A DNA stretch of 42,138 nucleotides from a virus (taxonomy: Duplodnaviria > Heunggongvirae > Uroviricota > Caudoviricetes). A program made the position numbers and the translations under genes. The notes beneath the pieces are model-generated. The model made no database searches. It saw only the letters and a list, made by a program, of their open reading frames with translations, and was not told the DNA's origin. The stretch lies in the IMG/VR virus record IMGVR_UViG_2737471818_000002, positions 1 to 42,138 of that record; one strand, given 5' to 3'. This document shows, one piece after another, positions 7,659-8,024 of the stretch; positions within the stretch are counted from its first letter, which is position 1, and each line of letters starts with the position of its first letter.

Positions 7659-8024
7659 TCACTCCGGCTTTTTGATATGTCGCTCGCAGAACTCAACAAG
7701 CCTGCTCATTAAGTAGCAGTAAGTCTCGTTGGCTCTTCCTGGTTCAACATCAACACCTACCCTTGAGCAGATATCGAATGCCATGTGAGCGCACTCATGG
7801 GCAATAGTAGATAGTTTGCCATTGAACACGCCTATCACATGCAAAACACCATTCTCGCTACTCATTGTATGAGACGCTCCGTTGGCGTCCGAGTCATGCA
7901 CGTCAACGCCAAGTTTTTGATGCAGGCGTTGCCATTCTGGAAAGTCTCTACAAAACACAATTGTACCGCTCTCAAAGAGCGGTACGAGCATCTTTGGTAC
8001 GTTTCCAATGTTAACTTTTTTCAT
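7659..8024 (-). CDS. Hypothetical small zinc-metalloprotein with HExxH motif
   Basis: 121-aa ORF with AGGA RBS; motif IAHECAHMAFDICS plus several Cys/His; no confident family assignment. Confidence 0.45.
   Translation of the reverse strand: MKKVNIGNVPKMLVPLFESGTIVFCRDFPEWQRLHQKLGVDVHDSDANGASHTMSSENGVLHVIGVFNGKLSTIAHECAHMAFDICSRVGVDVEPGRANETYCYLMSRLVEFCERHIKKPE

What the first reader, a model, noticed from the sequence alone, without database searches (positions are those of the whole stretch)
7659..8024. Small HExxH zinc-metalloprotein of unknown function in the exclusion hotspot
The 121-aa protein carries IAHECAHMAFD, a HExxH metal-binding signature, plus extra Cys/His residues. It is too short for typical ImmA/IrrE or SprT proteases and lies outside the immunity region. 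It could be a minimal metallopeptidase or a zinc-binding regulator acting on a host or phage target.
Basis: partly seen in the sequence, partly recalled or inferred. Interest (0 to 1): 0.45.

Follow-up and report, generated by a model that had tools for sequence, protein, structure and literature searches.

The report
Phage HkcC: minimal zinc-protease-like protein
The 121-residue ORF is a real, strongly conserved phage gene (hkcC of HK620, left unannotated in the phage P22 reference genome); it belongs to a large phage-only family of tiny proteins that all keep a thermolysin-type zinc-protease active-site signature, and what they cut is unknown.

Summary
7659..8024(-) encodes a 121-aa protein with H76-E77-x-x-H80. 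It is HkcC of coliphage HK620. P22 carries the same DNA at 97.5% identity, but its reference records annotate no CDS there.

It is a real gene: 30 synonymous against 4 non-synonymous variant codons among 38 alleles.

It belongs to a phage-restricted family (PHROG 1365, function unknown), with 546 representative clusters, almost all 105-140 aa. Across 118 members (mean column identity 22%) only G49, H76, E77, H80 and E100 are invariant, and Y104 is 96% conserved. HExxH, then Glu 20 residues on in 'NE', is the thermolysin-type gluzincin spacing.

AlphaFold gives a confident β-β-α-β-β-α-α fold (pLDDT 89). No curated family and no solved structure matches significantly. The nearest folds are uncharacterized phage proteins, a few auto-named 'SprT-like'.

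The gene lies on the late-operon strand between ejection gene 16 and the tailspike gene, so late transcripts must cross it. Relatives occur in virulent phages too. An exclusion role is therefore unlikely.

Best reading: an accessory cytoplasmic zinc peptidase of the lytic cycle, substrate unknown. In enterobacterial relatives it forms a convergent cassette with orf59a.

The parts
7659..8024 (-). hkcC coding sequence (121 aa, 13.6 kDa, pI 6.4), a member of PHROG 1365
   Evidence: ORF. It is 99% identical to HK620 HkcC AAK28904.1. phrog_1365 matches at E 1.7e-39. 30 synonymous against 4 non-synonymous variant codons. pI and mass.
7785..7799 (-). Codons for H76-E77-C78-A79-H80: the HExxH motif on predicted helix 71-88 (proposed two zinc ligands plus the catalytic base)
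   Evidence: H76, E77 and H80 are invariant in 118 homologues. Helix 71-88 in the AF2 model, block pLDDT about 95.
7713..7730 (-). Codons for N99-E100-T-Y-C103-Y104: the 'NExxCY' motif at the start of predicted helix 100-116. E100 is the proposed third zinc ligand, 20 residues after H80. Y104 is a candidate transition-state stabiliser.
   Evidence: E100 100%, N99 78%, C103 83%, Y104 96%. phmmer and hhalign align it with NExxSD of thermolysin-like neutral protease.
8029..8032 (-). AGGA Shine-Dalgarno, 4 nt upstream of the hkcC ATG
   Evidence: Read directly from the sequence.
7651..7670 (.). Hairpin AAGCCGG-N6-CCGGCTT shared by the convergent genes hkcC and orf59a. It overlaps the last hkcC codons. 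It is a good intrinsic terminator for orf59a and a weaker one in the hkcC direction.
   Evidence: Terminator scan. HK620 annotates it as 'bidirectional terminator tORF59A'. Equivalent hairpins follow hkcC in L089 and L092.
7466..7645 (+). orf59a / HkcD (59 aa, pI 9.9), a YjzC-like small protein. It is the convergent cassette partner of hkcC.
   Evidence: phrog_3202 at E 1.3e-31; Pfam YjzC at E 0.0017, below threshold. A homologue lies immediately downstream and convergent in every locus whose HkcC is at least 46% identical.
7401..7429 (+). Sigma-70 promoter-like site TTGACT-17-AATATT upstream of orf59a
   Evidence: The same hexamers sit upstream of orf59a homologues in L089 and L092, and a near-identical site in L003.
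8059..8544 (+). Divergent neighbour: a 161-aa lipoprotein gene in the slot that holds sieA in P22 and hkcB in HK620. This is context, not part of the hkcC function. Late transcripts cross it antisense before reaching hkcC.
   Evidence: Lipobox LLAGC; phrog_6067 at E 2.9e-109. The slot is variable across 80 P22-like loci. P22 and HK620 maps.

Best explanation
hkcC encodes a soluble, single-domain zinc-dependent hydrolase of about 13.6 kDa, most probably an endopeptidase with a minimal gluzincin-type active site.

Proposed active site (inferred):
- H76 and H80 on one helix and E100 at the start of the next helix bind the metal.
- E77 is the general base.
- Y104, one helical turn after E100, helps stabilise the transition state.

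Expression (inferred): the gene has no promoter of its own. It is a passenger of the P22-type late operon, lying between ejection gene 16 and tailspike gene 9. It is therefore made late in lytic growth. It has no signal peptide, so it acts in the cytoplasm.

Role (inferred): it is an accessory function that cleaves a specific host protein, or possibly a phage protein. It is not an exclusion protein of the prophage.

Shown here: the gene is real and under selection; the catalytic tetrad is invariant; the predicted fold is confident; the gene's orientation and contexts; the restriction of the family to phages.

Not shown: metal binding, peptidase chemistry, timing of expression, and the substrate, which remains unknown.
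For: Real gene:
- 30 synonymous against 4 non-synonymous variant codons.
- 546 representative clusters at E<=1e-3, nearly all 105-140 aa.
- All 118 aligned members hit phrog_1365.

Active site:
- Only G49, H76, E77, H80 and E100 are invariant at 22% mean column identity; Y104 is 96% conserved.
- 141 of 145 representatives keep the catalytic Glu within HExxH. This points to catalysis rather than a purely structural metal site.
- The H80-to-E100 spacing of 20 residues and the 'NE' context match those of the thermolysin-like neutral protease 1npc in the phmmer alignment. hhalign gives 61% probability over 45 columns.

Fold:
- The AF2 model has pLDDT 89.1 and pTM 0.83, with order β-β-α-β-β-α(HExxH)-α(E100).
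- Foldseek against viral models finds 26 phage proteins at E<=1e-3. Two are named SprT-like (TM up to 0.72). One named Metalloprotease follows at E 1.3e-3.

Expression and context:
- The gene is on the same strand as genes 16 and 9.
- No promoter-like site was found on its strand within 675 nt upstream.
- It has an AGGA ribosome-binding site.
- In a Klebsiella prophage a strong terminator lies directly upstream, leaving no room for a promoter.
- Paralogues and distant members sit co-oriented inside late operons next to terminase, portal, Dec or tail genes. The second neighbour on either side is on the same strand in 62 of 66 and 60 of 66 cases.
- Members also occur in virulent phages: N4-like phCDa and a chimallin-encoding jumbo phage.
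Against: - No curated family matches. Pfam, NCBIfam and PADLOC give nothing significant. The SprT-like hits in 31 of 118 members cover only the 16-residue HExxH helix.
- The geometry of the metal site could not be measured because no coordinates are returned.
- HExxH zincin-like folds can hydrolyse non-peptide substrates. E. coli YgjP-type nucleotide pyrophosphatases are an example; this is from my own knowledge and was not tested here.
- The timing of expression is inferred from gene order only, and no transcript data were found.
- In N4-like phCDa the homologue heads a run of small genes that looks early rather than late.
Confidence: 0.55

Rival explanations
1. hkcC and orf59a form a two-gene functional module. 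The prophage-expressed small basic protein 59a is either the substrate or the inhibitor of the HkcC protease. HkcC made from late transcripts would then remove or escape 59a when the phage switches to lytic growth, analogous to ImmA cleaving its neighbour-encoded ImmR. This can coexist with the best explanation.
For: - The convergent pair, about 13 nt apart and sharing a hairpin, is kept in P22-like podoviruses. It is also kept in tail-gene morons of siphovirus prophages of Klebsiella, Rosenbergiella, Xenorhabdus, Proteus and a Pasteurellaceae bacterium, at 46-63% HkcC identity and 64-81% 59a identity.
- A further 20 IMG/VR loci show the same arrangement.
- 59a has its own conserved promoter-like site.
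- In P22, 59a lies downstream of mnt in the prophage-expressed transcript.
- 52 of 58 phage records with 59a are near-identical (at least 95%) copies from Salmonella or enterobacterial phages, the group that carries P22-type hkcC. Adjacency was not checked record by record.
Against: - Most of the family has no 59a nearby. This includes the ~40% identity paralogues and all distant members examined.
- 11 of 80 P22-like loci have hkcC without 59a.
- YjzC-like proteins occur without HkcC in Firmicute phages.
- Linkage could simply reflect co-mobilisation of two morons that share one terminator.
Confidence: 0.15
2. hkcC is a prophage-expressed superinfection-exclusion or defence gene of the sieA 'exclusion hotspot', acting on incoming phages. 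This is the context the first reader implied.
For: - It abuts the variable slot that carries sieA, hkcB or a lipoprotein.
- Morons in late operons are often expressed from prophages (general knowledge).
Against: - It is on the opposite strand to the exclusion-slot gene, and no promoter-like site was detected on its strand.
- There is no PADLOC hit.
- The family is present in virulent phages, and next to terminase or portal in many phages with no exclusion genes.
- hkcC stays constant while the neighbouring slot varies.
Confidence: 0.08
3. HkcC is a non-catalytic zinc-binding adaptor or regulator. The metal site would be structural.
For: - The protein is very small, and no peptidase family match reaches threshold.
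Against: - The catalytic Glu of HExxH is not a metal ligand in zincins, yet it is invariant.
- Y104, one turn after the third ligand, is 96% conserved.
- Purely structural sites rarely preserve the full catalytic signature over this much divergence.
Confidence: 0.08
4. HkcC is a DNA-associated SprT/Wss1-like protease that clears proteins from phage DNA before packaging, or a zincin-fold hydrolase acting on a non-peptide substrate such as a nucleotide signal.
For: - Fold-level neighbours include phage proteins auto-named SprT-like.
- 31 of 118 members give sub-threshold SprT-like hits.
- The gene is frequently adjacent to terminase genes.
- About 8% of representatives carry Lys-rich C-terminal tails.
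Against: - The SprT-like matches cover only the HExxH helix.
- The third conserved ligand position is Glu, not the His of SprT/Wss1 (my knowledge of those families).
- HkcC itself is mildly acidic (pI 6.4) and has no basic tail or zinc ribbon.
- There is no PDB fold match to Spartan or Wss1.
Confidence: 0.1
5. The ORF is a non-coding, antisense artefact of the sieA promoter and orf59a terminator region.
For: - P22 reference records annotate only 'sieA promoter' and 'mnt terminator' here and no CDS.
Against: - Codon-level purifying selection.
- 546 representative clusters, found in unrelated genomic contexts that lack sieA and mnt.
- A confident predicted fold.
Confidence: 0.01

Closest known systems
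Thermolysin-type gluzincins (peptidase family M4: thermolysin, Bacillus neutral protease)
   Same: HExxH on one helix, then a Glu ligand exactly 20 residues after the second His within an 'NE' motif on the next helix. phmmer and hhalign align residues 48-115 and 67-111 respectively with the catalytic core of neutral protease 1npc.
   Different: - M4 enzymes are secreted two-domain proteins of about 316 aa. HkcC is 121 aa, cytoplasmic and single-domain.
- The similarity is not significant: E 0.09, hhalign probability 61%.
- There is no fold-level hit.
- His231, which helps stabilise the transition state in thermolysin, has no counterpart in the aligned region.
Minigluzincins (abylysin/proabylysin 4JIU, projannalysin)
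   Same: They are soluble stand-alone zincin catalytic scaffolds of about 100-110 aa, with a small β-sheet, a backing helix, an active-site helix and a Glu-bearing helix. WLM and SprT domains have been described as sharing this organisation (PMC4559962). The HkcC model has the same order of elements.
   Different: - They are archaeal or bacterial rather than phage proteins.
- No sequence match to any PDB chain reaches significance.
SprT-like / WLM (Wss1, Spartan) zincins, Pfam PF10263
   Same: They are small HExxH domains. The closest named structural neighbours in the viral model library are phage 'SprT-like family' proteins (TMq 0.72, E 5e-5). 31 of 118 family members give weak PF10263 hits.
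   Different: - The hits are below the gathering threshold and limited to profile positions 61-79, the HExxH helix.
- The third ligand is an invariant Glu 19-20 residues downstream, not a His (the latter is from my knowledge of these families).
- There is no zinc ribbon or basic DNA-binding region.
- There is no match to solved Spartan or Wss1 structures.
ImmA/IrrE metalloproteases (Peptidase_M78, COG2856)
   Same: They are small HExxH-plus-Glu proteases of mobile elements that cleave a specific partner protein encoded next door. This offers a conceptual parallel for the hkcC/orf59a cassette.
   Different: - No member hits PF06114 even at E<=1.
- Only marginal fold similarity to phage 'IrrE' models (E about 0.04, TM 0.28-0.41).
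- The neighbour is not an HTH repressor, the genes are convergent rather than co-transcribed, and most family members have no such neighbour.

Membership tests
PHROG 1365 (phage protein family, function unknown) / HkcC of HK620 | Significant full-length match to the family profile; near-identity to HK620 HkcC | tested here: met
   phrog_1365 at E 1.7e-39 over residues 1-121. All 118 aligned homologues hit it. 99.2% identity to the HK620 hkcC product.
Zincin / gluzincin metallopeptidase superfamily | HExxH motif conserved across homologues, including the catalytic Glu | tested here: met
   H76, E77 and H80 are invariant in 118 sequences. 141 of 145 representatives carry the motif.
Zincin / gluzincin metallopeptidase superfamily | Third metal ligand is a Glu on the helix after the active-site helix (gluzincin subclass) | tested here: met
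   At the sequence and secondary-structure level: E100 is invariant, lies 19-20 residues after H80 and starts predicted helix 100-116. Actual metal coordination could not be tested.
Zincin / gluzincin metallopeptidase superfamily | Zincin fold recognisable against solved structures (β-sheet, backing helix, active-site helix) | tested here: inconclusive
Zincin / gluzincin metallopeptidase superfamily | Zinc binding and peptide-bond hydrolysis | not testable with these tools
   Needs purified protein, metal analysis and activity assays.
SprT-like (Pfam PF10263) | Domain-length match above the Pfam gathering score (25.6 bits) | tested here: not met
   The window protein gives no hit. The family consensus scores 14.4 bits over profile positions 63-78 only. 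The best member reaches E 1e-4, below threshold.
ImmA/IrrE (Peptidase_M78, PF06114) | Match to the M78 profile; adjacent HTH repressor substrate | tested here: not met
   No PF06114 hit among 118 members at E<=1. The neighbours are a YjzC-like protein and a lipoprotein.
Thermolysin family M4 | Significant similarity to the M4 catalytic and C-terminal domains | tested here: not met
   Only a motif-region alignment: E 0.09 and hhalign probability 61% over 45 columns. The protein is 121 aa against about 316 aa.
Minigluzincins | Sequence or structural match to abylysin or jannalysin | tested here: not met
Known anti-phage defence or exclusion proteins (PADLOC) | Match to a defence-system protein model | tested here: not met
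   No PADLOC hit at E<=1.

The most novel reading that the evidence does not exclude
HkcC-family proteins could be a phage-specific class of minimal zinc proteases used for host takeover or counter-defence, each paralogue cutting a different host protein.

Three observations do not exclude this reading:
- Two paralogues of 38-40% identity co-exist in some P22-like genomes.
- Members occur in virulent phages.
- In an N4-like phage the homologue appears to be the first gene of the early region.

In the enterobacterial clade, the convergent prophage-expressed 59a would act as the protease's dedicated inhibitor or substrate, giving a lysogeny/lytic switch.

None of the words 'protease', 'peptidase', 'metallo', 'zincin' or 'SprT' occurs in the main text of a 2025 catalogue paper covering 268 anti-defence proteins. 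A proteolytic anti-defence family would therefore probably be a new mechanism class.
Probability: 0.15. Interest if true: 0.75.

Novelty: new variant of a known kind. Interest (0 to 1): 0.42.

Why it matters
P22 and HK620 are among the best-studied phages. Even so, this conserved gene has no CDS in the P22 reference records and no assigned function anywhere.

Recognising it as the founding example of a large, phage-restricted family of about 120-residue gluzincin-type proteins gives three things:
- a concrete, testable biochemical prediction (four point mutants);
- a candidate for one of the smallest natural metallopeptidase scaffolds;
- a tractable genetic system (P22 in Salmonella, HK620 in E. 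coli) to find what a late-expressed accessory phage protease cuts.

If the target is a host defence or housekeeping factor, it would add proteolysis to the known repertoire of phage host-manipulation strategies.

If it is an ordinary accessory enzyme, the result is still a corrected annotation for many Lederbergvirus genomes.

Tried and rejected
- Pfam, NCBIfam and PADLOC scans of the protein gave only chance hits, such as lantibiotic families through the 'HEC' string.
- PDB sequence searches with the single sequence and with two profiles gave nothing below E 0.09.
- The afdb50 library was unavailable.
- SprT-like membership was rejected, because the matches cover only the HExxH helix.
- A second metal site from the extra Cys/His residues was rejected, because those residues are not conserved.
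- A search of the window for a second family member found none.
- The strong hairpin inside codons 14-21 was examined as a possible conserved RNA or DNA element. It is stable (-17 kcal/mol; only 0.7% of synonymous recodings are as stable). However, the majority allele carries a mismatch, and 60%-identity homologues lose the hairpin. It is not a family feature.
- The search for related loci with the 118-sequence alignment failed for lack of a conserved stretch. Sub-alignments were used instead.
- Literature searches returned nothing on function. Terms tried: hkcC, ant moron, YjzC, SprT-like plus phage, anti-defence plus metalloprotease, and P22 RNA-seq. The only relevant statements are that hkcC and 59a are genes of unknown function.

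Full report
**1. Observation**

The minus-strand ORF 7659..8024 exists as described. It encodes 121 aa (13.6 kDa, pI 6.4) with ...STIAHECAHMAFDI... HExxH is residues 76-80, nt 7785-7799. An AGGA Shine-Dalgarno lies 4 nt upstream of the ATG.

An HExxH string alone is weak evidence. It is the only one among the 55 large non-overlapping ORFs of the window, where 0.2 are expected by chance. The case rests on conservation.

**2. Identity**

The window is a P22-like (Lederbergvirus) prophage read in reverse orientation.
- Tailspike gene 9 is at 5327..7219(-).
- Ejection gene 16 is at 8547..10664(-).

The ORF is 99% identical to HkcC of coliphage HK620 (AAK28904.1, product 'unknown'). P22 has the same DNA at 97.5% identity, between sieA and orf59a. 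The P22 records AF527608, BK000583 and NC_002371.2 annotate only the 'sieA promoter' and 'mnt terminator' there, with no CDS.

The literature held here only lists hkcC and 59a as genes of unknown function in the P22 'ant moron' (PMC2629481; PMC4837284).

**3. It is a real gene and a large family**

- Among 80 P22-like IMG/VR loci there are 38 nucleotide alleles. They show 30 synonymous against 4 non-synonymous variant codons.
- An exhaustive profile search of 1.84 billion representative proteins found 546 relatives at E<=1e-3 and 151 at E<=1e-10. Nearly all are 105-140 aa and single-domain.
- All 118 aligned members fall in PHROG 1365, 'unknown function'.
- Every genomic context examined is phage or prophage.

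**4. Active-site signature**

In the 118-sequence alignment (mean column identity 22%) the only invariant columns are G49, H76, E77, H80 and E100. Y104 is 96% conserved, G90 92%, C103 83% and N99 78%. 141 of 145 representatives keep HExxH. The other four are two short fragments, one frameshifted-looking sequence and one full-length E-to-K variant.

The second His and the invariant Glu are 19-20 residues apart. In this protein H80 to E100 is 20, within 'ANETYCY'. That is the HExxH...NExxSD spacing seen in thermolysin-like neutral protease:
- phmmer aligns residues 48-115 with 1npc residues 117-182 (E 0.09).
- hhalign of the family profile against that fragment gives 61% probability over 45 columns.

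Invariance of the non-ligand Glu77, together with a Tyr one helical turn after the third ligand, argues for catalysis rather than a structural metal site.

**5. Structure**

AlphaFold2 with an 18-sequence alignment gives pLDDT 89.1 and pTM 0.83. The elements are β11-13, β21-25, α28-37, β49-56, β59-66, α71-88 (HExxH) and α100-116 (E100, Y104). This is the element order of minimal zincin scaffolds: sheet, backing helix, active-site helix, Glu helix. Minigluzincins, WLM and SprT domains have been described as sharing this organisation (PMC4559962).

No solved structure matches significantly:
- The best Foldseek PDB E-value is 0.12.

In the viral model library 26 phage proteins match at E<=1e-3. 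Most are 'uncharacterized'. Two are auto-named 'SprT-like', one 'Metalloprotease' follows at E 1.3e-3, and 'IrrE' models match only weakly.

Coordinates are not returned, so ligand distances could not be measured.

**6. Family membership**

- Pfam, NCBIfam and PADLOC give no significant hit.
- 31 of 118 members give sub-threshold SprT-like (PF10263) hits. These cover only profile positions 61-79, the HExxH helix.
- No member hits Peptidase_M78.

The protein therefore carries the zincin/gluzincin signature but belongs to none of the curated families tested.

**7. Context and expression**

hkcC lies on the late-operon strand. Gene 16 ends at 8547. A 161-aa lipoprotein gene (8059..8544, +) lies antisense between gene 16 and hkcC. 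hkcC follows, and then a hairpin at 7651-7670 that HK620 annotates as a bidirectional terminator. Next come orf59a (7466..7645, +) with its own promoter-like site (7401-7429), a strong terminator (7283-7302, -) and gene 9.

No promoter-like site was found on the hkcC strand within 675 nt upstream. The start codons of hkcC and the divergent lipoprotein gene are only 35 nt apart. Any late transcript that reaches the tailspike gene must therefore cross hkcC in the sense direction. That gene 9 is expressed this way in P22 is established knowledge. That hkcC is translated is inference.

The divergent slot is mosaic, carrying lipo161, SieA, HkcB or none of these, while hkcC stays constant.

**8. Wider contexts**

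(a) *Cassette with orf59a.* A convergent orf59a homologue lies immediately downstream in every locus whose HkcC is at least 46% identical. This includes morons inside the tail-gene clusters of siphovirus prophages of Klebsiella, Rosenbergiella, Xenorhabdus, Proteus and a Pasteurellaceae bacterium. It also holds in 20 further IMG/VR loci. The promoter-like site of 59a is conserved. In a Klebsiella prophage a strong terminator sits directly upstream of hkcC.

(b) *Paralogues.* Paralogues of about 38-40% identity lack 59a. Examples are ST64T Orf129 and ε34 gene 70. They sit in the late operon after the lysis cassette and an 80-aa gene, just before dec or the terminase genes. Some P22-like genomes carry both paralogues (L068 and L129 come from one contig). 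This window has only one.

(c) *Distant members.* One lies between terminase and portal, and one upstream of terminase. One is in Providencia phage Kokobel2, and one is near chimallin in a jumbo phage. In the N4-like virulent phage phCDa the homologue is the first gene of a run of small genes. In 69 loci the second neighbour on either side is co-oriented in 62 of 66 and 60 of 66 cases.

**9. Interpretation**

The best-supported reading is an accessory cytoplasmic zinc metallopeptidase of the lytic cycle, made from late transcripts in P22-like and lambdoid phages. Its substrate is unknown.

- A prophage exclusion role is unlikely, given the strand, the lack of a promoter, the presence in virulent phages and the absence of a PADLOC hit.
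- The tight hkcC-59a cassette in enterobacterial phages suggests a functional link, with 59a as substrate or inhibitor, or simply co-mobilisation. Most of the family lacks 59a, so it cannot be the general target.
- A DNA-associated SprT/Wss1-like role, or a non-peptide substrate, cannot be excluded but has little support. HkcC is mildly acidic with no basic tail. Only about 8% of representatives carry Lys-rich tails.

**10. Novelty and score**

The gene is known by name but not by function. The family is a distinct, uncurated, phage-restricted variant of the zincin/gluzincin kind. This is moderately interesting: a testable enzyme prediction for an unannotated gene of a model phage, and possibly one of the smallest metallopeptidase scaffolds. 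It is not very surprising to a specialist, and there is no evidence on the biological target.

Noticed in passing
window 7466-7645 (+), promoter-like site 7401-7429: orf59a/HkcD is a 59-aa basic (pI 9.9) YjzC-like protein (phrog_3202; Pfam PF14168 below threshold). Its TTGACT-17-AATATT promoter-like site is conserved in divergent prophages. It looks like a self-contained moron (promoter, gene, terminator) that is probably expressed from the prophage. Distant YjzC-family relatives occur in Brochothrix and Clostridium phages.
   Followed up: partly
window 8059-8544 (+): A 161-aa lipoprotein (lipobox LLAGC, phrog_6067, function unknown) occupies the slot that holds sieA in P22 and hkcB in HK620. 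It is present in 17 of 80 P22-like loci. It is a candidate alternative superinfection-exclusion protein; only weak PHROG hits to Cor and Rz-like lipoproteins were seen.
   Followed up: partly
window 7963-7985: A perfect 10-bp-arm palindrome (GTACCGCTCT TTG AGAGCGGTAC) lies inside hkcC codons 14-21, just upstream of the position of the P22 PsieA promoter. Its stability is -17 kcal/mol, reached by only 0.7% of synonymous recodings. The commonest allele has one mismatch, and 60%-identity homologues lose the hairpin. Its function, if any, is unexplained (operator or attenuator?).
   Followed up: partly
P22 records NC_002371.2 / BK000583.1 13861-14223; AB426868.1 13798-14160: hkcC is intact (99.2% protein identity) but has no CDS annotation in the P22 reference records. 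In KR296688.1 the same ORF is labelled 'GNAT family acetyltransferase', and in KR296686.1 orf59a is labelled 'tubulin/FtsZ family GTPase domain protein'. Both look like annotation errors.
   Followed up: no
L185 (phage epsilon34) 3501-3890; ST64T Orf129; L129 and L068 (same IMG/VR contig): A paralogue of 38-40% identity from the same family sits between an hkbM-like 80-aa gene and the Dec decoration or terminase genes in many P22-like phages. Some genomes carry both paralogues, which suggests diverged specificities.
   Followed up: partly
family representatives P0063, P0067, P0116, P0133, P0150, P0094: A minority of family members carry Lys/Glu-rich C-terminal tails of 40-70 aa. One (P0094, 283 aa) has an N-terminal extension of about 165 aa. 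These are possible nucleic-acid-binding or targeting appendages.
   Followed up: no
L184 (Pseudomonas phage phCDa, N4-like) 4965-5327: The family member phCDa_24 is the first gene of a rightward run of small genes that diverges from the terminase-containing leftward operon. If this is the early-region start, as in N4, the family would be early-expressed in that virulent phage.
   Followed up: no
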